Part shown: piece after piece, positions 18,525 through 25,726 of the stretch | Layout: each line of letters starts with the position of its first letter | Numbering within the stretch: the stretch's first letter is position 1 | Assembly: GCA_965205855.1 (NCBI GenBank) | Contig: OZ242184.1 | Coordinates: 1,248,001 to 1,312,000 of the forward strand | Direction of reading: 5' to 3' | Source: Thermodesulfobacteriota bacterium | Lineage (GTDB): Bacteria; Desulfobacterota_D; UBA1144; Nemesobacterales; Mycalebacteriaceae | Length of the DNA stretch: 64,000 nucleotides | Notes under the pieces: model-generated | The model's input: the letters and a program-made list of their open reading frames with translations, nothing else | Databases searched by the model: none | What the model was told of the DNA's origin: nothing | Program-made: the position numbers and the translations under genes

Positions 18525-20726
18525 TCAGACCTTTTTAAGAAAAGAAGCCATAATCCTTTTTCTTCCCACAGCGGGAAAGAAAACCGTTACTGCCGCCTTT
18601 ACGCCGTTGCCGTCAATCTTCAAAACCTTTCCGCGTCCGAATTGTTCATTGTGGACATAGACCCCGGCGGAAAATCCGTGACTTTCCGCGCAAGTGTCCG
18701 GAGTGGAAAGAGGAACCGCTTCGGGCTCTGTGGACGGAAAAACCGCAAACGGTTCGTCCCCGTGCGGATAGCACTCAAACATTTCCGGGACAAAATCCTC
18801 GTATTCTTTCAACTCATCGGGAATTTCGTCAAAAAATCGGGACAAACACGCGGGTTCTTTTTTCCCGTATGTGTTTTTTTGAACCGGATAACACAGAAAA
18901 AGCCGCTTTTTCGCCCGCGTCATCCCCACATAGCAAAGACGTCTTTCTTCCTCAATATCTTCGATTATTCCGCTTTTTGAGAGCGGAATAACATCTTCAT
19001 TCATACCAACTATGAATACGACCGGAAACTCAAGACCCTTGGACGCGTGAAGCGTCATAAGTTTCACCACACCTTCGCCGGCTTCGGTGTCCGTGTCACT
19101 TGCAAGGGCTATCTGTTCCACAAATCCCCGGAAATCAGAACCCACGACGCGGTCAAACTCATGGGCGGAATTGAGAAACTCGTCAATGTTTTCCTTTCTG
19201 TCTCCGCCTTTGTCCAGCAACTCCCGGTAACCGCTTTTTTCAATAACCTGATTCGCCGTTTCAAAGGCCCCTTTACCTTCGACAAACTCCGCGATGCCGT
19301 CCATCATACGCGCGAATTTTCCCACAGAAGTCGCCGCCCGTTTGGAAAGAAACCCGCCCTTCTCGGCGCCTCGGGCAGCTTCCATAATTGACAATCCGCC
19401 CGCGGCGGCAAACTCTGAAAGTTTCGTGACTGTCGCCTTGCCTATACCGCGCGGTGGTATGTTGATTACCCTCATCGCGGCGCTGTCATCGGAGGGATTC
19501 ATAAGAAGACGCAGATAAGAAACCACATCCTTGATCTCCGCCCTTGCGTAGAAACTGAGCGCGCCAACCAGAACGCACGAAAGTCCGTCTTCTTTGGCAA
19601 ACCTTTCTTCAATAAGCCGGGATTTGCTGTTTGTGCGGTAGAGAATGGCGAAATCACCGGGCGAAAAATCACCGTTTTCAACGAGCGGTTTAATTTTTGA
19701 AACAACAAAATCCGCCTCATCAAACTCATTGCGCGCCTCGTATATTGCTATTTTTTCACCCTCATCCCCATCCGTCCACATATCCTTTTTTACGCCGAGT
19801 TGGTTGTTAGTGATAAGAGCATTTGACGCCTTCAGTATAGTAGAAGTTGAGCGGTAATTTTTGCTGAGTTTAATCTCTTTCGCTCCCGGAAAATCTTCCG
19901 AAAAACCGAGAATGTTTTTCACATCCGCCCCGCGCCATCCGTATATTGACTGACTGTCATCGCCAACTGCGCAAACATCGGCGTTGTCCTCTCCGAGCAT
20001 TTTCACAATTTGATACTGAATGCGGTTTGTGTCCTGATATTCGTCAACCAGAATGTGCTTGAACCTTTTTCTGTACTTTTCCAGAGTTTCGCGGTCTTTG
20101 TTAAAAAGGCGGACAACAAACATAAGCAAATCGTTGAAATCAAGCGCGTTGGCTTTTTTCATCGCAGAGTCGCAGGCGGCAATTATCTCCATTTTTTCCG
20201 CAACATCTCTTTCGCCTTGGCGGAAATCCCGCGCAGACGGAGGAAAAACGCCGTCTCTTTTGAACCGTTCAATAATGCTTCTTATCAATTTGGGAGGAAT
20301 TCTCTCCTCTCTTATGTTCATTTCAAAAAGACATCTTTTAATCAGGTTTTTCTGATCGCCCGTGTCGTAAATAACAAAATTGCCTTTATATCCGAGCCCG
20401 AGATTTTCTATGTCGGCGCGCAGTATGCGTGCGCAGACGGAATGAAAGGTGCCAAGCCATATCCCCGCGATACTGTCGGGCAGAAGCGCCTCAACCCTTT
20501 CCCGTATCTCACGCGCCGCCCTGTTTGTGAATGTAACGGCGAGAATTTCCGATGGGCGGACTTGTTTCTCTTTTATGAGAAACGCTATACGGGTTGTAAG
20601 GACACGGGTTTTACCCGAACCTGCGCCCGCGAAAACAAGGAGGTGTCCGCCTGTGTGGGAAACCGCCTCGGACTGTTCGGGGTTGAGTCCTGCGGCGTTT
20701 TGAGTGGACTGTTCGTCTGTCTTCAT
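18525..20726 (-). CDS. pcrA: UvrD/PcrA ATP-dependent DNA helicase
   Basis: AGAGSGKT, VDEYQDTN, VGDDSQSIYGWRG, NYRS, LMTLHASKGLEF, EERRLCYVGMTRA, C-terminal Tudor-like domain. Confidence 0.95.
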   Translation of the reverse strand: MKTDEQSTQNAAGLNPEQSEAVSHTGGHLLVFAGAGSGKTRVLTTRIAFLIKEKQVRPSEILAVTFTNRAAREIRERVEALLPDSIAGIWLGTFHSVCARILRADIENLGLGYKGNFVIYDTGDQKNLIKRCLFEMNIREERIPPKLIRSIIERFKRDGVFPPSARDFRQGERDVAEKMEIIAACDSAMKKANALDFNDLLMFVVRLFNKDRETLEKYRKRFKHILVDEYQDTNRIQYQIVKMLGEDNADVCAVGDDSQSIYGWRGADVKNILGFSEDFPGAKEIKLSKNYRSTSTILKASNALITNNQLGVKKDMWTDGDEGEKIAIYEARNEFDEADFVVSKIKPLVENGDFSPGDFAILYRTNSKSRLIEERFAKEDGLSCVLVGALSFYARAEIKDVVSYLRLLMNPSDDSAAMRVINIPPRGIGKATVTKLSEFAAAGGLSIMEAARGAEKGGFLSKRAATSVGKFARMMDGIAEFVEGKGAFETANQVIEKSGYRELLDKGGDRKENIDEFLNSAHEFDRVVGSDFRGFVEQIALASDTDTEAGEGVVKLMTLHASKGLEFPVVFIVGMNEDVIPLSKSGIIEDIEEERRLCYVGMTRAKKRLFLCYPVQKNTYGKKEPACLSRFFDEIPDELKEYEDFVPEMFECYPHGDEPFAVFPSTEPEAVPLSTPDTCAESHGFSAGVYVHNEQFGRGKVLKIDGNGVKAAVTVFFPAVGRKRIMASFLKKV

Positions 20727-20738
20727 TTTGCAGGTGTT

Positions 20739-21491
20739 TCAGTCTTTTTGTTTGTCCGCCGCGCTTTCAGAAGAGCGGGAAAAGTGTATTCCGCACTCTT
20801 TGTCGGAACCGGATTCCCACCACCATCTTCCGGCTCTCGGATCTTCCCCCGGAGCGACCGCGCGCGTGCAGGGAGCGCAGCCGATTGACGGATATCCCAT
20901 GTCGTGCAGTTTGTTATACGGAACGCCGTTTGACCTCACATAGTCCCAGACCTCCTGTTCGGTCCAGTTGACTATCGGGTTGATTTTCAAAATTCCCCCA
21001 TTAACAAGGTCTTTCTCAAATTTGCGTGCCAGAGCCCGCTGTTCGGTCTGATTGCTACGCAGAGAAGTTATCCACCCGTCAACTCCGCGCAGGTATTTGC
21101 GGAGCGGGTTAACCTTCCTCACCCCGCAACACATACGCCTGTTTTCCACGCCCCGGTAGAAAAAGTTTATACCATGCTTAGAGACCATGTCGCCGACCTC
21201 AAGCGCATCGGGAAAAACAACCTCAATGCGCGCGCCGTATTTTTCCCTCACCTGCTCCATCACTTCGAAGGTCTCGGAATTCAGCCGTCCGGTGTCAAGG
21301 GTGAAGATACGCGCGTCCGGTTTCACTTTCATAAGGATGTCTATCAAGACCGTCCCCTGTGCCTGAAAACTCGTGGCGAGCGCGACTTTGGGGTGAAGTT
21401 TTTCAATAGTCCAAGCCAGAACATCCGCGGGATTTTTATCCGCGAACCGCCTGTTCAATTCATCAATTTGCGCCGCTGTAAATTCCATCAT
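20739..21491 (-). CDS. cysH: APS/PAPS reductase (Fe-S, APS-reductase type)
   Basis: LDTGRL, CC..RKV.PL, GYPSIGCAPCT, RAGRWWWE, ECGIH. The CC plus CxxC cluster ligands indicate an APS reductase. Confidence 0.93.
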   Translation of the reverse strand: MMEFTAAQIDELNRRFADKNPADVLAWTIEKLHPKVALATSFQAQGTVLIDILMKVKPDARIFTLDTGRLNSETFEVMEQVREKYGARIEVVFPDALEVGDMVSKHGINFFYRGVENRRMCCGVRKVNPLRKYLRGVDGWITSLRSNQTEQRALARKFEKDLVNGGILKINPIVNWTEQEVWDYVRSNGVPYNKLHDMGYPSIGCAPCTRAVAPGEDPRAGRWWWESGSDKECGIHFSRSSESAADKQKD

Positions 21492-21495
21492 TTCC

Positions 21496-22473
21496 TTATT
21501 GTAGCACAAACAGCATTGCGGCGAAGTATCCGATTGCCACCGTGAAAAACGGCACCGCGAGCCAGAAAAACGCTATTTTGAGCACATGCCGGTTTTTCGC
21601 CGTTGTGCCAAATCCGTGCTGCGCGCAGGAAAAGCCTATAATTCCCGCAGTTACGATTTCGGTTATTGAAACGGGAATCCCCGCAAGAGACGCAACGATG
21701 ATTATCAGCGCGGCGGTCGCCTCAACGGTTATCGCCCTTATCAGGCATATCTCCGTTATTTCCTTCCCCACGGTTTCAAGAACCCTTCCGCCAAGCACAA
21801 GCGCCCCGACGGCCATTGCCACGCCCGCAAGAAGCGCGCCCGTCGAGGATTGTACAATTCCCAGTCCGACAATCGGGCCCACGGCGTTTGCGGAGTTGTT
21901 CGCGCCCGCGGCAAAAGCAAGAAAAATACCTGAAACCGTTATGCAAAGTTTCAGCACACTGCTGACGCCTTTCTCGGAAAAATTGTCGGCAAGATAGTTG
22001 AGGATTTTGTAATACAAAAACTTGCCCACAAGAAAACCTATAAGCCATGACAAGACCGGCGCAGCAACCCACCAGACAACTATTTCATAAAAACGGGCAT
22101 AGTTGAGAGCCCCGAAGAAAATACCCATGCCCACGATTGAACATACAATGGCATGAGTTGTGGCAACCGGAATTTTTGATATGTTCGCCCACGAAACAAA
22201 AACAAGCGCGATAACAAGCACTATGACCGTGAGAACGGCGTCGTTTGAGATTGTTTCGTGCGGAACCAGACCCTTACCTATTGTTTCCACAACCGGAGCG
22301 CCGGCGAGAATCGCGCCGAGAATCGCAAAAACCGCGATAATCCAAACCGCCTGCCTCTTTGTTCTCGCTCCCGCCCCGTAGGAAGACGCCATCGCGGCGG
22401 CGGAGTTGTTCGCGCCGATATTCACGGCGAGAAATCCTGACAAAACAACGGCGGATATCAAAATCAGTTCCAT
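21496..22473 (-). CDS. PiT-family anion permease, likely sulfate permease (CysP-like)
   Basis: Two PiT signatures (IGANNSAAAM, AGANNSANAVG); 4 nt upstream of cysH, as with B. subtilis CysP in its cysH operon. Confidence 0.8.
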   Translation of the reverse strand: MELILISAVVLSGFLAVNIGANNSAAAMASSYGAGARTKRQAVWIIAVFAILGAILAGAPVVETIGKGLVPHETISNDAVLTVIVLVIALVFVSWANISKIPVATTHAIVCSIVGMGIFFGALNYARFYEIVVWWVAAPVLSWLIGFLVGKFLYYKILNYLADNFSEKGVSSVLKLCITVSGIFLAFAAGANNSANAVGPIVGLGIVQSSTGALLAGVAMAVGALVLGGRVLETVGKEITEICLIRAITVEATAALIIIVASLAGIPVSITEIVTAGIIGFSCAQHGFGTTAKNRHVLKIAFFWLAVPFFTVAIGYFAAMLFVLQ

Positions 22474-22541
22474 ATCAAAACTCTCTCAAACAAACTGCAA
22501 AGAAAACTCCGGCGCGTTTTCCCCTGTGGTAAGGAAACGCG

Positions 22542-22590
22542 AAAAAAACGCATGTTTTCAATGCCCTGTAAAAAACAGGGGAAAACTGCG
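22542..22590 (-). terminator. intrinsic terminator-like hairpin in the leader of the permease-cysH operon (putative attenuator)
   Basis: RNA CGCA-GUUUUC-CCCUGU-(U5)-ACAGGG-cauu-GAAAAC-a-UGCG-U7: 16-bp bulged stem plus U7 tail, starting 5 nt after the leader ORF stop. Confidence 0.7.
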
Positions 22591-22595
22591 CTCAA

Positions 22596-22682
22596 TCACA
22601 TACAACAGGAACAGCACACGCAACCGCAGGAACAGCGGTGGGTGCAAAAAGAGACAAAACAGTTGTAAAACGCATCTGACAT
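22596..22682 (-). CDS. Cys-rich leader peptide (putative attenuation peptide), 28 aa
   Basis: Manual translation MSDAFYNCFVSFCTHRCSCGCVCCSCCM*, 9 Cys; same strand and upstream of the sulfate-assimilation genes; below the ORF-track size cutoff. Confidence 0.75.
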   Translation of the reverse strand: MSDAFYNCFVSFCTHRCSCGCVCCSCCM

Positions 22683-22712
22683 TGTTTGCAACTCATCCGA
22701 TTTCAGGAGAAA

Positions 22713-22741
22713 GTAATATGTGGAAAAAAGGGGAAAGTCAA
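22713..22741 (-). promoter_or_regulatory. putative sigma70 promoter for leader-permease-cysH
   Basis: TTGACT-17 nt-TATTAC, 30 nt upstream of the leader ATG. Confidence 0.5.
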
Positions 22742-22762
22742 TCATCACAGGCTGAAAAGCGT

Positions 22763-23305
22763 TCACTCAACCAGATCTTTCACATCAAATATACTGAAAA
22801 ACTCAATCCCTTCATCGGAGAAAATTTTGCTTGATTCGGCGCGACTGACAACCGCCATAACCTTTGAAACCTCCACGCCCGCGGCTCTCACCGCTTCAAT
22901 CGCACCCATAACCGAGCCGCCCGTGGTAACAACATCTTCAACCATCACGACGCGGTCTCCTTTCTCCAAATTACCCTCAATCAGTTTCTGCGTCCCGTGG
23001 TTTTTTTCCGCTTTGCGAACTATAAAACCCCGGACATCGGTTCTTTCGCATAATGACAGTATCGCTCCGACTATCGGGTCGGCTCCGAGCGTGGGGCCTC
23101 CAATGGCGTTTGCGTCTTTATCCTTTGAAAACTCGGCAAGAAAAATCGTGGCAATCAGCCGCGCGCCTTCGGGGTGAAGCGTGGTTTTTCTGGCGTCTAT
23201 GTAAAGACTGCTTTTTTTACCCGAAGCAAGGGTGTAATCACCAAAGACAACGGACTGCTCAAGCAGTATGCGACGCAAATCGTCCCTTTCGTTTTTCAAA
23301 TTCAT
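22763..23305 (-). CDS. pyrE: orotate phosphoribosyltransferase
   Basis: YTLASGKKSSLYID, IGGPTLGADP, VRKAEKNHGT, MVEDVVTTGGS. Confidence 0.95.
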   Translation of the reverse strand: MNLKNERDDLRRILLEQSVVFGDYTLASGKKSSLYIDARKTTLHPEGARLIATIFLAEFSKDKDANAIGGPTLGADPIVGAILSLCERTDVRGFIVRKAEKNHGTQKLIEGNLEKGDRVVMVEDVVTTGGSVMGAIEAVRAAGVEVSKVMAVVSRAESSKIFSDEGIEFFSIFDVKDLVE

Positions 23306-23310
23306 AAAAC

Positions 23311-23378
23311 CGGATTGAAATTACACCGCTACGCCTCGTTATTCAATCCGTTACGTTCAATCCGCCTCGCTCAATCTG
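23311..23378. repeat. three direct and one inverted copy of TTCAATCCG-like 9-mer
   Basis: TTCAATCCG at 23342 and 23356, CTCAATCTG at 23370 (14-nt period); inverted CGGATTGAA at 23311-23319. Confidence 0.7.
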
Positions 23379-23397
23379 TTATTGTTTTTCTTCGGAA

Positions 23398-24795
23398 ATG
23401 ACAAACACAAACGCGACAACCGCTCTCGGAGCGGCGGCAACCGTGATGCTCTGGGCTATCACCGCACTTTCGGACAGGTTCGGGAGTTTTCCTCAGGGAC
23501 TTGCGGAAATGCCCGTAATTGAAACAGTCGCCCTTCTTTGCGCCTCGGCGGTTTTCTATCTTGGCGCCGTGCGTTTTGCCGGACGGGAAAGCGGTGCGTT
23601 GCCGTTCGCGCTTGTTTTTGGAATCGGGATTTTGATGAGAGCGGCGGGGCTCTTTGCAAGCCCGGTTCTTGAAGATGATTACTTCAGATACCTATGGGAC
23701 GGCGCGGTCGCGGCAAAGGGAATAAATCCATATCTGTTCTCTCCCTCGGAAGCCGTTACGGGAGAGGCTGGAGACGCTCTTGAAGTGCTCGCGGCGCAGT
23801 CTGGCGAGGTCGTGTGGCGCGTAAACCATCCTTATCTGAAAACAATCTACCCTCCTGCAACGCAGGCTTTTTTTGCCTTATCAAATGTTATCTCGGAGTG
23901 GAGCGTGGGAGTCTGGCGGCTTGTCCTGCTCACGGCGGATGTGGCGACTTTTTTCATTTTACGAGCAATGGGCGGAAATAAAACCAATCCCGTAATCTAC
24001 TGGTGGAATCCGCTTGTCGTCTTTGCCTTTTTTTTCTCATGTCATTTTGACGCGTTGGTGTTCCCGTTTGTTCTCGGCGCGCTCGCGGCGACGAGGAAAA
24101 ATCGCGGGAATCTCGCCGTTTTACTGCTTTCCGTCTCAGTCTCGGTAAAGTTGTGGACGGCGGCGCTGATTGCGCCGCTTGTCCGCGGCGCCGGTGGAGG
24201 CGCGAAAAAAACCCTCGCGCTGATAGCGCTTTTTGCCGCCTCCGCAACAGCGATGCTTTCTCCCCTTCTTTTTTACGGATTGGGTGAAAACTCCGGTCTT
24301 GCCGCTTACGCGGAAAGCTGGGAAAATAACAGCTCGTTTTTCAGACTCAATCTGCTCGCTTCGCGAAACATGGCGGAGTTGGCCGGGTTCCACCCCGGAT
24401 ACGGACAGATAGCGGCAAGGATTTCCACCGCCGTTATAATCACGCTCGGTGCCGCTTACGGTTTTTTCTCAAACAGATGGAAAAGCGATGACACCGCTGG
24501 AAGGTTTCTTTTTGTTTCCGCCCTTGTGTTCCTCGTTCTGCCAACCCAGTTCCCGTGGTACTACTGCTGGATTGTCCCGTTTCTCGCTTTGAGAAAAGAC
24601 GGGGCAAAATGGTCCCTGCTCGTCCTCACCGCTCTTCTTCCGCTCTACTACACAAAGTACCGGATTGAACAGCCGGAAAACGGCGGGCTGTTTGACGGCC
24701 TTATTGTGTGGATTGAATTCGTTCCGGTGTGGATAATGTTGTTTTTTGAACAAATACGAAGCAAAACGGCGGTGAGATTGAAAGATGAGGTTTGA
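23398..24795 (+). CDS. GT-C fold polytopic membrane glycosyltransferase (GT87-like)
   Basis: EDDYFRYLWDG...GINPY...P, TIYPP, YWWNPL, PWY motifs; many TM helices. Confidence 0.7.
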   Translation: MTNTNATTALGAAATVMLWAITALSDRFGSFPQGLAEMPVIETVALLCASAVFYLGAVRFAGRESGALPFALVFGIGILMRAAGLFASPVLEDDYFRYLWDGAVAAKGINPYLFSPSEAVTGEAGDALEVLAAQSGEVVWRVNHPYLKTIYPPATQAFFALSNVISEWSVGVWRLVLLTADVATFFILRAMGGNKTNPVIYWWNPLVVFAFFFSCHFDALVFPFVLGALAATRKNRGNLAVLLLSVSVSVKLWTAALIAPLVRGAGGGAKKTLALIALFAASATAMLSPLLFYGLGENSGLAAYAESWENNSSFFRLNLLASRNMAELAGFHPGYGQIAARISTAVIITLGAAYGFFSNRWKSDDTAGRFLFVSALVFLVLPTQFPWYYCWIVPFLALRKDGAKWSLLVLTALLPLYYTKYRIEQPENGGLFDGLIVWIEFVPVWIMLFFEQIRSKTAVRLKDEV

Positions 24796-25726
24796 AAAAG
24801 AAATCGCCGCCGCGCTTCCGGCGATCGCGCAAACATGCCTATTGTGCCTGTCCGCGCGACGCAAAGGGTTTGCGGATGCGGAAAAAAAGAAAGACAAAAC
24901 ACCCGTAACTGCAGCGGACTACGCGGCGCAGTTCATACTGACAAAAACCTTGAGAAAAACATTTCCGCGCGACGAGATTGTGGCGGAGGAGTCCCCCGAC
25001 CTTCCCGGCGGAACGGGCGGCGGCATGCTTGCGAAAATTCTGCAACTGCTCCCCGGAGAGAACGGCGGAGATATTCTGGAAACTCTGGGGTGCGGAGCGG
25101 GAAACGCGCACGCCAAAAGATTCTGGACGATTGACCCGATTGACGGAACGGCCGGATTTATAAGGGGCGCGCAGTTTGCGGTCGCGGTCGCTCTGGTTGA
25201 AGAGGGCGAGGTCTCACTCGGATTTCTCGGCTGCCCCGGACTCGGATTTATAATGCATGCCGCGCGCGACCTGGGGCTTTACAAAACCGGTGTTGACGGC
25301 TCCGGAGGAAAAAGGATTTTCCCACAAAAGCCACGCGAGGAGAAAATAGTCCTATGCGAAACAGCGGCCGGAACACCGGACGCATACGGCGTTTCGGGAA
25401 AGATCATACGCGGAGCGGCATCATTGACGGGAAAACGGACAGAGGCAATCACAATGGACGGCCAGTGTAAATATGCTCTTGTCGCGGAGCGGTCGGCGGA
25501 TGTTTTCCTGCGCGTTCCCAACTCCGGAGGGCGGAGGGAGAATATCTGGGACCATGCGGCGGGAGCCGTGATCGCGGGCGAATCGGGAGCAGAGGTCTCT
25601 GATTTTGACGGAGCCGTGCTTGATTTTTCCACAGGCGCGCAACTTGCACGCAACAGGGGAATAGTCGCCGCGGCGCGGGAGATTCACGGTGACATTATAA
25701 ACTCAATACAAAAAGCGGAAATTTGA
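24785..25726 (+). CDS. 3'(2'),5'-bisphosphate nucleotidase, HAL2-like (inositol monophosphatase family)
   Basis: DKTPVTAADY, AEE, WTIDPIDGT.GF.RG.QFAV, LGCP, Q.KY, ENIWDHAAG. Confidence 0.85.
   Translation: MRFEKEIAAALPAIAQTCLLCLSARRKGFADAEKKKDKTPVTAADYAAQFILTKTLRKTFPRDEIVAEESPDLPGGTGGGMLAKILQLLPGENGGDILETLGCGAGNAHAKRFWTIDPIDGTAGFIRGAQFAVAVALVEEGEVSLGFLGCPGLGFIMHAARDLGLYKTGVDGSGGKRIFPQKPREEKIVLCETAAGTPDAYGVSGKIIRGAASLTGKRTEAITMDGQCKYALVAERSADVFLRVPNSGGRRENIWDHAAGAVIAGESGAEVSDFDGAVLDFSTGAQLARNRGIVAAAREIHGDIINSIQKAEI

What the first reader, a model, noticed from the sequence alone, without database searches (positions are those of the whole stretch)
22500..22741. Candidate cysteine-sensing leader-peptide attenuator controlling a sulfate permease-APS reductase operon
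Seen: the gap between pyrE and the PiT/cysH operon holds, on the operon strand and in order, TTGACT-17-TATTAC, a 28-codon ORF MSDAFYNCFVSFCTHRCSCGCVCCSCCM (9 Cys, 7 of them in residues 17-27), and 5 nt after its stop a 16-bp bulged hairpin with a U7 tail. The leader's Cys/Ser codons (UUCCUGU, CUGCG) are complementary to the terminator arms (ACAGGG, CGCAG), so a competing fold is possible. Established: amino-acid leader attenuation works by ribosome stalling on cognate codons; poly-Cys leaders upstream of cys genes are described in Actinobacteria, including mycobacteria; B. subtilis CysP is a PiT-family sulfate permease in the cysH operon. Inference: Cys-tRNA shortage stalls the ribosome and allows read-through. 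I know of no report of this in this apparent lineage or with this terminator-type layout, but could not search.
Basis: partly seen in the sequence, partly recalled or inferred. Interest (0 to 1): 0.9.

Follow-up and report, generated by a model that had tools for sequence, protein, structure and literature searches.

The report
Cysteine-codon leader before sulfate-uptake operon
A short, cysteine-rich upstream reading frame followed by two conserved RNA hairpins sits in front of a sulfate-permease/APS-reductase operon in one genus of small-genome bacteria, and most likely lets the ribosome report cysteine supply to the operon, a known kind of switch seen here in a new lineage and layout.

Summary
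On the minus strand lie a TTGACT-17-TATTAC promoter-like site, a 28-codon ORF (22682-22596, 9 Cys), a 48-nt bulged hairpin starting 5 nt after the UGA with a U7 tail, a second hairpin, a U-rich tract, then PiT(CysP-like)-cysH. The whole unit is present once in 6 of 6 genomes of the genus. It was not found in 95 other genomes of the order with a covariance model, nor upstream of PiT in 65 other loci of the class. Start (ATG x5, GTG x1), stop and frame (3- and 6-nt indels) are kept. Cys is 5-9 of 26-28 codons, against 1.2% in long ORFs. Both hairpins keep pairing through compensatory changes. No Rfam match.

Best reading: a ribosome-dependent, Cys-tRNA-sensing leader attenuator (0.55). The switch itself is unresolved. 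In equilibrium folds only a ribosome at Met28 or the stop codon melts hairpin 1. I therefore favour direct occlusion by a ribosome held on the last, invariant Cys codons, and I cannot exclude the opposite polarity. It is a new variant of a known kind, comparable to mycobacterial poly-Cys sORFs and the Rhodobacterales cysS uORF.

The parts
22736..22741 (-). -35-like hexamer TTGACT
   Evidence: Read. It is invariant in 6 of 6 genus members.
22713..22718 (-). -10-like hexamer TATTAC, 17 nt after the -35
   Evidence: Read. At the same spacing (16-17 nt) the relatives have TACCCT, TAGCAT, TATTCT, TATCCT and TATTTT. TA is kept in 6 of 6 and the final T in 5 of 6. It was not listed by the scanner.
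22692..22698 (-). Weak Shine-Dalgarno-like purine stretch GGAUGAG, 9 nt before the sORF start
   Evidence: Read. Comparable GAG/GGU-containing stretches lie at the same place in the relatives. The inference rests on this alone.
22596..22682 (-). Leader sORF, 28 codons plus UGA: MSDAFYNCFVSFCTHRCSCGCVCCSCCM
   Evidence: Orthologous sORFs of 26-28 codons occur in 6 of 6 genus genomes. The start is ATG in 5 and GTG in 1, indels are 3 or 6 nt, and Cys counts are 9, 7, 5, 7, 6 and 5. Only M1, S2, S11, C24, S25, C27 and M28 are invariant.
22596..22613 (-). Nucleotide-invariant end of the sORF, UGU UCC UGY UGU AUG UGA (codons 24-28 plus stop), which holds the last three Cys codons (24, 26, 27)
   Evidence: It is invariant except codon 26 (UGU, UGC or CGC), and this includes synonymous sites. 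Codon 26's third base covaries with codon 7 (helix H2).
22546..22593 (-). Hairpin 1 (segments 1:2): conserved lower stem, variable apical stem
   Evidence: It is predicted in 6 of 6 species. In the lower helix 93% of cells are paired. The apical helix has a different sequence in each species, with 3 of 5 pairs changed on both sides.
22542..22548 (-). U7 tract after hairpin 1 (terminator-like tail)
   Evidence: Read. A comparable U-run follows in G001 and G003 only. It is weak in G004 and G002 and absent in G005.
22513..22541 (-). Hairpin 2 (segments 3:4)
   Evidence: It is predicted in 6 of 6 species at -11.8 to -17.3 kcal/mol. 3 of 6 pairs change on both sides.
22498..22506 (-). Conserved U-rich tract UUUU[G/C]U[U/C]UG, 0-9 nt after hairpin 2
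   Evidence: It directly follows the stem (2 nt or less) in G001, G004 and G005. It is also complementary to CAAACA just before the sORF start (helix H1).
22481..22487 (-). PiT ribosome-binding site GAGAGAG
   Evidence: Read. Purine-rich equivalents occur in the relatives.
21496..22473 (-). PiT-family permease (CysP-like), first gene controlled
   Evidence: Pfam PHO4, 2.9e-52. The best NCBIfam model is sulfate permease CysP at 228.5 bits, below its 400-bit cut-off.
20739..21509 (-). cysH, thioredoxin-dependent APS-reductase type
   Evidence: TIGR02055 scores 254.7 bits against a cut-off of 235.3, and NF002537 scores 268.5. The CC...CxxC and ECGIH motifs are visible in the translation. Synteny with PiT was seen in 29 of the 30 other loci examined (30 of 31 loci counting the window's own second locus).

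Best explanation
The region is a genus-specific, ribosome-dependent leader (attenuator) of the cysP(PiT)-cysH operon that reads the supply of charged tRNA-Cys.

Proposed sequence of events:
1. Transcription starts at the conserved TTGACT promoter, and the 26-28-codon Cys-rich sORF is translated.
2. By default the RNA behind the polymerase folds into hairpin 1 and hairpin 2. At least one of them is directly followed by a U-run in 5 of 6 species, so most transcripts end before PiT.
3. The only place where a ribosome can interfere is the foot of hairpin 1. That foot begins 5-6 nt after the UGA and 11-12 nt after the last Cys codon.
4. When Cys-tRNA is short, the lead ribosome is held on the last Cys codons (C24, C26, C27; C24 and C27 are the only invariant Cys, and C26 is kept in 5 of 6 species). 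It then sits against the foot of hairpin 1 while the polymerase is at the U-tract, and the basal pairs cannot close.
5. The polymerase reads on. The freed 3' arm (segment 2) can pair with segment 3, so hairpin 2 is also skipped.
6. When Cys-tRNA is ample, the ribosome finishes and leaves (or never catches up), both hairpins fold, and transcription stops.

Status of the steps. Shown here: the anatomy, its conservation, and covariation in the hairpins. Inferred: translation of the sORF, termination at the hairpins, the direction of the response, and the occlusion step.
For: Anatomy and conservation:
- The promoter-like site, sORF, hairpin 1, hairpin 2, U-rich tract and PiT lie in the same order in 6 of 6 genomes of the genus.
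- Each genome has a single copy, found with covariance model R1 at E from 3.6e-31 to 2.9e-27.

Coding signature of the sORF:
- The start is ATG in 5 genomes and GTG in 1, at the homologous position.
- UGA is conserved, and the indels within the ORF are 3 and 6 nt.
- Synonymous UGU/UGC and GGU/GGC changes occur.

Cys enrichment:
- Cys counts are 5-9 of 26-28 codons against 1.7-1.9 expected from composition. P runs from 4.6e-5 to 2.8e-2 per species.
- Long ORFs of the genome have 1.2% Cys, and there is a single tRNA-Cys gene.
- Individual Cys positions drift, often as UGC to CGC, while the count stays high. This fits regulatory codons better than a folded peptide.

Hairpins:
- Hairpin 1 gives -26.9 kcal/mol with z = -5.93.
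- On the six-sequence alignment, 92.2% of cells are paired, against 41-60% when partners are slid.
- 11 pairs change on both sides, against 3-9 when slid.
- 0-1 of 500 shuffles reach the observed values.

Alternative register:
- The alternative register (2:3, 1:4) is nearly isoenergetic in part of the genus. The 2:3 fold gives -16.7, -16.0 and -16.6 kcal/mol in G001, G003 and G004.
- The MFE of G003 adopts that register.

Geometry and context:
- In E. coli, moving a stop codon from 28 to 5 bp before terminator tR2 cut termination from about 90% to under 10%. The authors estimate that 10-15 nt of free RNA between the A site and the hairpin are needed for full folding (PMC4824070, abstract and section 10 read). 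Here the distance is 5-6 nt from the stop and 11-12 nt from the last Cys codon.
- No conserved promoter-like site lies between the hairpins and PiT.
- The controlled genes are a CysP-like permease and an APS-type CysH.

Precedent:
- Poly-Cys sORFs control Cys genes in mycobacteria (bioRxiv 10.1101/834739, abstract and Discussion read).
- A Cys-codon uORF with a terminator is predicted before cysS in Rhodobacterales (PMC8632094, passages).
Against: - In equilibrium folds with a 28-nt ribosome mask (five species; G002 was not yet fetched), hairpins 1 and 2 still form with the A site on every Cys codon tested, including the last. Only Met28 or the stop codon melts the foot of hairpin 1.
- No classical antiterminator is conserved. 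2:3 is weak in G000, G005 and G002 (-5.5, -8.7, -5.2 kcal/mol). A 5'UTR:segment-1 pairing is no better than shuffled controls: the fraction of shuffles at least as stable is 0.32, 0.38, 0.33, 0.79, 0.04 and 0.52.
- The U-run is not at the same hairpin in all species, and G002 has no canonical one.
- Early Cys codons (8, 13, 17), present in most species, would under the occlusion model hold the ribosome too far upstream.
- A lagging ribosome favours termination, so the simplest kinetic reading gives the opposite polarity.
- Part of the nucleotide invariance, and some UGY codons, may reflect RNA pairing inside the sORF (helices H2 and H3) rather than codon function.
- z-scores of the hairpin region are modest in 4 of 6 species (-1.29 to -2.39).
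- Only six related sequences exist, and the structure was derived from the same alignment on which it was counted.
- There are no expression data.
Confidence: 0.55

Rival explanations
1. Translation-completion-dependent read-through, with opposite or Cys-independent polarity. The hairpins terminate by default, and only a ribosome that reaches the UGA, 5-6 nt from hairpin 1, melts its foot and lets the polymerase pass. Expression therefore needs fast, complete translation of the Cys-rich sORF, and falls when Cys-tRNA is short or when the polymerase outruns the ribosome. This resembles pyrBI/pyrE-type coupling control.
For: - Masked folds show that only an A site at Met28 or the stop codon disrupts hairpin 1.
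- The E. coli tR2 experiment shows that a stop codon 5 bp upstream nearly abolishes termination (PMC4824070).
- The leader is very U-rich, 38-41% U in the sORF, as in UTP-sensitive attenuators. That last comparison is recalled, not tested.
Against: - Positive feedback of cysteine on sulfate assimilation is physiologically odd. Known Cys regulons are induced by limitation (10.1101/834739).
- Cys enrichment would have no obvious purpose if any codons would do.
Confidence: 0.15
2. A structured leader RNA (riboswitch-like, or a protein- or sRNA-binding site) whose helices happen to run through an open frame. Under this reading the Cys codons are a by-product of U/G-rich paired strands, and the peptide and ribosome stalling are irrelevant.
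For: - Helices inside the sORF show compensatory changes. H2 pairs codons 6-7 with codons 26-27 (G-C in 3 species, A-U in 2). H3 pairs codons 13-14 with 21-22, and 3 of its 5 pairs change on both sides.
- Synonymous sites of codons 24, 25 and 27 are invariant.
- Variable sites by codon position are 14/12/17, so there is no third-position excess.
- The +1 frame is also open in all six species, because the sequence is A-poor.
Against: - A conserved start codon (with an ATG-to-GVG type change, here ATG to GTG), a conserved UGA and only in-frame indels occur within the ORF. Downstream indels have arbitrary lengths.
- Cys counts exceed the composition expectation in all six species, and exceed the other two frames (0-3 Cys).
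- The sORF folds are not more stable than shuffles, with z from -0.68 to -1.75.
- No Rfam family matches at E up to 10.
Confidence: 0.1
3. An arrest peptide acting at the stop codon, in the manner of TnaC or SpeFL. The 26-28-aa nascent chain, still inside the exit tunnel, stalls termination at UGA in response to a sulfur-status metabolite. The parked ribosome opens hairpin 1 and the alternative register (2:3) prevents termination.
For: - Only a ribosome at the stop opens hairpin 1 in the masked folds.
- The last five codons, the UGA and the spacer are invariant, and N-terminal residues (M-S-x-x-F/L, S11) are also kept.
- The peptide length fits the exit tunnel. That point is recalled knowledge.
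Against: - There is no similarity to a known arrest peptide, and this was not searched.
- The middle of the peptide is poorly conserved and has indels.
- Cys enrichment is explained more simply by codon sensing.
Confidence: 0.08
4. An independent gene for a small Cys-rich peptide (metal-binding, redox, or an accessory subunit of the permease) with its own terminator. PiT-cysH would then be expressed by leaky read-through without cysteine sensing.
For: - The small ORF is conserved, with an SD-like stretch, and a strong hairpin plus U7 follows right after the stop in G000.
- Some small proteins accompany transporters. That point is recalled.
Against: - Only 2 Cys positions (24, 27) are invariant. 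The other Cys positions are each lost in at least one species, there are indels, and there is no excess of third-position changes.
- The U-tail after hairpin 1 is missing in 3 of 6 species.
- No separate conserved promoter exists for PiT.
Confidence: 0.07

Closest known systems
Mycobacterial polycysteine leaderless sORF attenuators (Canestrari et al. 2020; bioRxiv 10.1101/834739, abstract and Discussion read)
   Same: A short upstream ORF rich in Cys codons sits in front of cysteine- or sulfur-metabolism genes. Ribosome pausing on Cys codons is proposed, and there shown, to relieve repression when cysteine is limiting.
   Different: - The mycobacterial sORF is leaderless. Here a roughly 13-23-nt 5'UTR with an SD-like stretch is predicted.
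- There the Cys tract base-pairs with the downstream SD (translational control). Here no conserved pairing with the PiT RBS was found.
- Here two terminator-like hairpins follow the ORF.
- The phylum differs and there is no sequence homology.
uORFC-8-2 motif upstream of cysS in Rhodobacterales (Brewer et al. 2021, PMC8632094, passages read)
   Same: It is a predicted ribosome-mediated attenuator with a uORF carrying tandem Cys codons, two stems and a 3' U-run typical of an intrinsic terminator.
   Different: - It controls the tRNA synthetase gene, not sulfate assimilation.
- Only two Cys codons are present, and they lie inside the first stem. Here 5-9 Cys codons end 11-12 nt before the first stem.
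- It is alphaproteobacterial and not homologous. No Rfam hit was obtained, and whether that motif is in Rfam 15 was not checked.
Classical trp/his/ilvB leader-peptide transcription attenuators (textbook; Mtb ilvB1 model in PMC13236596, passages read)
   Same: All have a leader ORF with cognate codons, an intrinsic terminator before the structural genes, and a decision made by the position of the lead ribosome. Alternately complementary segments (1:2, 3:4 against 2:3) are also present.
   Different: - In the classical design the stalled ribosome leaves an antiterminator free, and the ribosome at the stop codon masks it. Here the stop codon precedes the first hairpin.
- No conserved antiterminator was found.
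- The ribosome at the stop would mask the first arm of the terminator-like hairpin itself.
Candidate Cys leader peptides of Actinobacteria (Seliverstov et al. 2005, PMC1262725, passages read)
   Same: These are short ORFs with runs of Cys codons near the stop codon, upstream of cys/cbs operons.
   Different: Those have no conserved terminator hairpins, and Rho-dependent termination was proposed for them. Here conserved hairpins with U-runs follow the ORF.

Membership tests
Classical leader-peptide transcription attenuator (trp/his type) | Short translated ORF in the 5' leader of a biosynthetic operon | tested here: met
   The evidence is comparative only. The start (ATG x5, GTG x1), the stop and in-frame indels are conserved in 6 of 6 species, and an SD-like stretch is present. 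Translation itself is not shown.
Classical leader-peptide transcription attenuator (trp/his type) | Cluster of codons for the amino acid made by the pathway | tested here: met
   Cys is 5-9 of 26-28 codons and is concentrated in the 3' half. Long ORFs have 1.2% Cys.
Classical leader-peptide transcription attenuator (trp/his type) | Intrinsic terminator (hairpin plus U-run) between the leader ORF and the first gene | tested here: inconclusive
   The hairpins are conserved in 6 of 6 species. A U-run within 2 nt of a stem is present after hairpin 1 in G000, G001 and G003, and after hairpin 2 in G001, G004 and G005. G002 has no canonical one. Termination was not measured.
Classical leader-peptide transcription attenuator (trp/his type) | Mutually exclusive antiterminator whose formation depends on where the ribosome stalls | tested here: not met
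   - 2:3 is competitive in 3 of 6 species only.
- Masked folds keep both hairpins for every Cys-codon stall.
- 5'UTR:segment 1 pairing is not better than shuffles.
Classical leader-peptide transcription attenuator (trp/his type) | Read-through rises when the cognate charged tRNA is scarce | not testable with these tools
   No RNA data are available. An experiment is needed.
Mycobacterial polycysteine LL-sORF translational attenuator | Leaderless sORF (transcript begins at the start codon) | tested here: not met
   The conserved -35/-10-like site places the transcript start about 13-23 nt before the start codon. The TSS is predicted, not mapped.
Mycobacterial polycysteine LL-sORF translational attenuator | Two or more consecutive Cys codons | tested here: met
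   CC pairs are present in 6 of 6 peptides.
Mycobacterial polycysteine LL-sORF translational attenuator | Base pairing of the Cys-tract RNA with the downstream gene's SD region | tested here: not met
   No conserved helix joins the sORF 3' end to the PiT RBS. The unpaired probability of the RBS does not change with ribosome position.
uORFC-8-2 (cysS uORF, Rhodobacterales) | Located upstream of cysS; two tandem Cys codons inside the first stem; terminal U-run | tested here: not met
   The downstream gene is PiT/cysH. The Cys codons end before the first large stem. The taxon differs. Only the general layout is alike.
Rfam families (any) | Match to a curated covariance model | tested here: not met
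   No match at E up to 10 in window 21000-24000.

The most novel reading that the evidence does not exclude
The leader does not read Cys codons by starvation stalling at all. Instead it works through a ribosome parked at the UGA stop. The conserved 26-28-residue Cys-rich nascent chain would act as a TnaC/SpeFL-like arrest peptide that senses a sulfur-status metabolite. The parked ribosome melts the foot of hairpin 1, flips the chain of alternately complementary segments (1:2, 3:4 to 2:3) and opens the operon. This would be the first arrest-peptide sensor for sulfur assimilation.
Probability: 0.08. Interest if true: 0.8.

Novelty: new variant of a known kind. Interest (0 to 1): 0.5.

Why it matters
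Cysteine-sensing leader peptides have been shown experimentally only in mycobacteria, where they act on translation. Elsewhere they are only predicted.

This unit would be an independently evolved example in Thermodesulfobacteriota, in front of sulfate uptake and APS reduction. Its layout differs from the textbook design:
- The regulatory codons abut the stop codon.
- The stop codon abuts the first of two hairpins.
- No classical antiterminator is present.

If it responds to cysteine, it would be a compact natural test case for how close a stalled ribosome must be to block an intrinsic terminator. It would also show how quickly a genus can invent such a switch, because relatives with the same pyrE-PiT-cysH synteny lack it. 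If instead the polarity turns out to be inverse, that would be the more surprising result.

Tried and rejected
- Rfam: no match at E up to 10 in 21000-24000.
The apical arm of hairpin 1 differs in each species, and CUGCG:CGCRG is only 5 bp.
- A long-range antiterminator between the 5'UTR (GAAAAC-like) and segment 1 was rejected. Cognate duplexes are -5.6 to -11.4 kcal/mol and no better than shuffled UTRs in 5 of 6 species.
- Translational control through PiT RBS accessibility: no change with ribosome position in the masked folds. Those folds were also dominated by a 5'-end pairing that may include untranscribed bases.
- Selenocysteine or read-through of the UGA, and hungry-codon frameshifting into hairpin 1, were rejected. 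The downstream frames are not conserved (stops after 9-43 codons, loop indels not multiples of 3), and the second in-frame-shifted TGA is in a different frame in G000 than in the others (read).
- No conserved candidate for a second promoter between the hairpins and PiT.
- Other amino-acid leaders in the genome: the sORF screen gave no convincing second leader. No Cys-rich sORF lies upstream of the two cysK-like genes or of sir.
- More members:
  - Exact-pattern scans of genome contigs (4 hits) and metagenome contigs (6 hits) returned only 3 true loci, all identical to genomes already held. The rest were chance matches.
  - The pattern misses G002, which has 1 mismatch.
  - R1 found nothing in 95 other genomes of the order, with strict filters.
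  - The PiT-upstream survey found no comparable sORF in 25 + 20 + 20 loci outside the genus. The TGTTGCTGC runs in the sister order lie out of frame inside an upstream cysN-like gene.
- Expression: no RNA holder listed. Laying four runs gave only identical short contigs and no information.
- I did not search the peptide against protein databases or fold it.
- Supplementary files were not opened. The alignments of PMC8632094 and Table S2 of the mycobacterial paper might list Cys-uORFs in other lineages.
- Literature searches that found no report for this lineage or for cysP-cysH are. The library covers open-access papers only.
Full report
**What is there**

All features lie on the minus strand of the window, between the end of pyrE (TGA 22765-22763; TIGR00336) and the start of a PiT-family gene (ATG 22473). 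The gap holds, in order:
- TTGACT (22741-22736), 17 nt, TATTAC (22718-22713).
- A purine stretch, GGAUGAG.
- An ORF from ATG 22682 to UGA 22598-22596, encoding MSDAFYNCFVSFCTHRCSCGCVCCSCCM.
- Five bases, then a long interrupted hairpin (about 22593-22546).
- U7 (22548-22542).
- A second hairpin (22541-22513).
- CCGGAG, then UUUUCUUUG (22506-22498).
- The PiT ribosome-binding site GAGAGAG.

Hairpin 1 folds at -26.9 kcal/mol (z = -5.93, 0 of 200 shuffles as good). It missed the second hairpin and the second U-rich tract.

**The genes behind it**

- The first gene is a PHO4/PiT transporter (Pfam 2.9e-52). Its best NCBIfam model is the CysP sulfate permease (228.5 bits, below the 400-bit cut-off).
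- The second gene is a thioredoxin-dependent APS-reductase-type CysH. TIGR02055 scores 254.7 against a cut-off of 235.3. The CC...CxxC and ECGIH motifs are visible in the translation.
- PiT-cysH synteny was seen in 29 of the 30 other loci examined across the order (30 of 31 loci hit when the window's own second locus is counted).

**Lineage and distribution**

- The genome is a single 1.40-Mb contig.
- Loci identical to two congeners carry the public title 'MAG: Thermodesulfobacteriota bacterium'.
- All six species-level genomes of the genus carry the unit. Five were found by looking upstream of PiT. The sixth (G002) was found after fetching the contig end.
- A covariance model of the sORF end plus both hairpins (R1) finds exactly one copy in each of the 6 genomes. 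It finds none in the 95 other genomes of the order (strict filters).
- No comparable Cys-rich sORF lies within 500-600 nt upstream of PiT in 65 loci from other families of the class.
- In one sister family, pyrE-PiT are about 105 nt apart with no leader. The leader is therefore a genus-level gain, or a loss elsewhere.
- Exact-pattern scans of the two large collections added no new member.

**Is the ORF a real leader ORF?**

The six peptides are:
- MSDAFYNCFVSFCTHRCSCGCVCCSCCM
- MSDAFNSCFFSFCARRHSRGCACCSCCM (GTG start)
- MSDALYSFFISFRAARFCGCARCSCCM
- MSDTFNNCFVSFCAPVCGCVRCSCCM
- MSRNFDICSVSFGARLCGCAPCSCCM
- MSCTFNSSCVSSHAPAFFRVGACCSRCM

Points in favour:
- Start, stop and frame are kept.
- Indels inside the ORF are 3 or 6 nt. 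Downstream they are of arbitrary length.
- Cys is 5-9 of 26-28 codons, against 1.7-1.9 expected from the ORF's own composition and 0-3 in the other two frames. Long ORFs of the genome have 1.2% Cys.
- Only Cys24 and Cys27 are invariant. The other Cys positions come and go, often as UGC to CGC.
- There is no third-position excess of changes (14/12/17). This argues against a folded, functional peptide and fits codons that matter by number and place.

Caveats:
- The sequence is A-poor, so the +1 frame is open too.
- Helices inside the ORF show compensatory changes (H2: codons 6-7 with 26-27; H3: codons 13-14 with 21-22). These sORF folds are not more stable than shuffles (z from -0.68 to -1.75).

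**The hairpins**

- RNAfold predicts hairpin 1 and hairpin 2 in all six species.
- The foot of hairpin 1 (CGCRGUUUUC / GRARRAYAKGCG) is conserved in sequence. Its apical stem has a different sequence in each species yet always pairs.
- On the six-sequence alignment of the whole leader:
  - 92.2% of cells pair, against 41-60% with slid partners.
  - 11 pairs change on both sides, against 3-9 when slid.
  - 0-1 of 500 shuffles reach the observed values.
- These counts come from only six related sequences, and the structure was derived from the same alignment.
- A U-run directly follows hairpin 1 in G000, G001 and G003. It follows hairpin 2 (within 2 nt) in G001, G004 and G005. G002 has no canonical one.
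- The second U-rich tract is nearly invariant. It is also complementary to CAAACA just before the sORF start (H1, 92% paired, no double changes).

**How it may work**

The segments alternate between pyrimidine-rich (1, 3, U-tract 2) and purine-rich (2, 4, RBS). Two registers are therefore possible: 1:2 + 3:4, or 2:3 (+1:4).
- The second register is nearly isoenergetic in G001, G003 and G004 (-16 to -17 kcal/mol), and is the MFE in G003.
- It is weak in G000, G005 and G002.

I looked for the usual logic, in which a stall leaves an antiterminator free, and did not find it:
- With a 28-nt ribosome mask, both hairpins form for every Cys-codon stall (five species; G002 was fetched later). Only an A site at Met28 or the stop melts the foot of hairpin 1.
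- A 5'UTR:segment 1 helix is not better than chance.

What is conserved is geometry:
- The stem begins 5-6 nt after the UGA and 11-12 nt after the last Cys codon.
- The last five codons, the stop and the spacer are nucleotide-invariant except codon 26.

Published E. coli work shows that a stop codon 5 bp before a terminator lowers termination from about 90% to under 10%. It estimates that 10-15 nt of free RNA between the A site and the hairpin are needed (PMC4824070).

I therefore commit to direct occlusion. A ribosome waiting for Cys-tRNA on codons 24-27 stands against the foot of hairpin 1 while the polymerase is at the U-tract. The basal pairs cannot close, and segment 2 is then free to take segment 3, so hairpin 2 is skipped as well.

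The confidence splits in two. That the unit is a Cys-responsive, ribosome-dependent attenuator I put at 0.55. For the occlusion step specifically I would give about 0.3.

The main weakness is kinetic. A slowed ribosome normally favours termination. The same anatomy would therefore also give read-through only when translation is completed, which is the opposite polarity (rival, 0.15). Sequence alone cannot decide between the two.

**Comparison with what is known**

- Cys-codon leader ORFs are described in Actinobacteria without terminators (PMC1262725, passages).
- In mycobacteria they are shown to act on translation through pairing of the Cys tract with the downstream SD (10.1101/834739, abstract and Discussion).
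- They are predicted before cysS in Rhodobacterales, with a terminator (PMC8632094, passages).
- My searches of the open-access library found no report for Thermodesulfobacteriota/Deltaproteobacteria, or for a cysP-cysH operon. Subscription papers and supplements were not visible.
- The unit is not homologous to any of these. It fails the defining antiterminator test of the classical family, and the leaderless and SD-pairing tests of the mycobacterial class.
- I file it as a new variant of a known kind: it works like them but is not a member of either family.

**Verdict**

Interest is moderate (0.5). This is a clean, conserved, independently evolved Cys leader with an unusual terminator-abutting layout and an unresolved polarity. 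It is directly testable with reporters and cell-free assays.

Noticed in passing
whole genome G000; relatives G001-G025: No ATP sulfurylase was found. Pfam PF01747 gave 0 matches in G000 and 0 of 5 congeners, and none in families f2, f3, f4 and f8. CysD-type PAPS_reduct gave only cysH plus one weak hit. Yet PiT-cysH and a 596-aa NIR_SIR sulfite reductase (C1:1162956-1164131) are present. Families f5-f7 have Sat next to PiT. How APS is made in this genus is unclear.
   Followed up: partly
window 24785-25726 (+) and 23398-24795 (+): A HAL2/CysQ-like 3'(2'),5'-bisphosphate nucleotidase (TIGR01330, 190 bits, below cut-off) lies divergently upstream of pyrE. It is preceded by a 465-aa ORF with no Pfam family.
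   Followed up: no
G000:C1:894722-895600, 386570-387448, 1116056-1116253: There are two cysK-like genes (329.6 and 276 bits, both below the 350.95 cut-off). No serine acetyltransferase is above cut-off; the best is 30.6 bits inside a 471-aa ORF. Cysteine synthesis may therefore use another acceptor. No Cys-rich sORF lies upstream of these genes or of sir.
   Followed up: partly
window 22596-22682 (-): The sORF RNA carries helices with compensatory changes. Codons 6-7 pair with codons 26-27, so the synonymous third base of Cys26 covaries with an Asn/Ser codon. Codons 13-14 pair with codons 21-22. Coding and RNA pairing are thus superimposed.
   Followed up: partly
L083-L089 (sister order, genomes of about 1 Mb): In the other order of the class, PiT follows directly (TAATG overlap) a gene ending ...NNTVAAGII, which looks like the C-terminus of CysN. 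That assignment is recalled from memory and was not tested. The TGTTGCTGC runs there are out of frame inside that gene.
   Followed up: no
L056 and L066, about 169 nt upstream of PiT: Two genomes of another genus share a 24-codon sORF (MCNKSIQR...) with 3 Cys upstream of PiT. This may simply reflect close relatedness.
   Followed up: no
G000:C1:264024-264077 (+): A Val/Phe-rich 17-codon intergenic sORF (MFAVFVRTVVGANPFVF) is followed by the most stable downstream fold of the screen (-27.8 kcal/mol). It is a possible second leader and was not examined.
   Followed up: no
window 18525-20726 (-): A PcrA/UvrD helicase gene starts 12 nt after cysH on the same strand, so it may be co-transcribed with the sulfur genes.
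   Followed up: no
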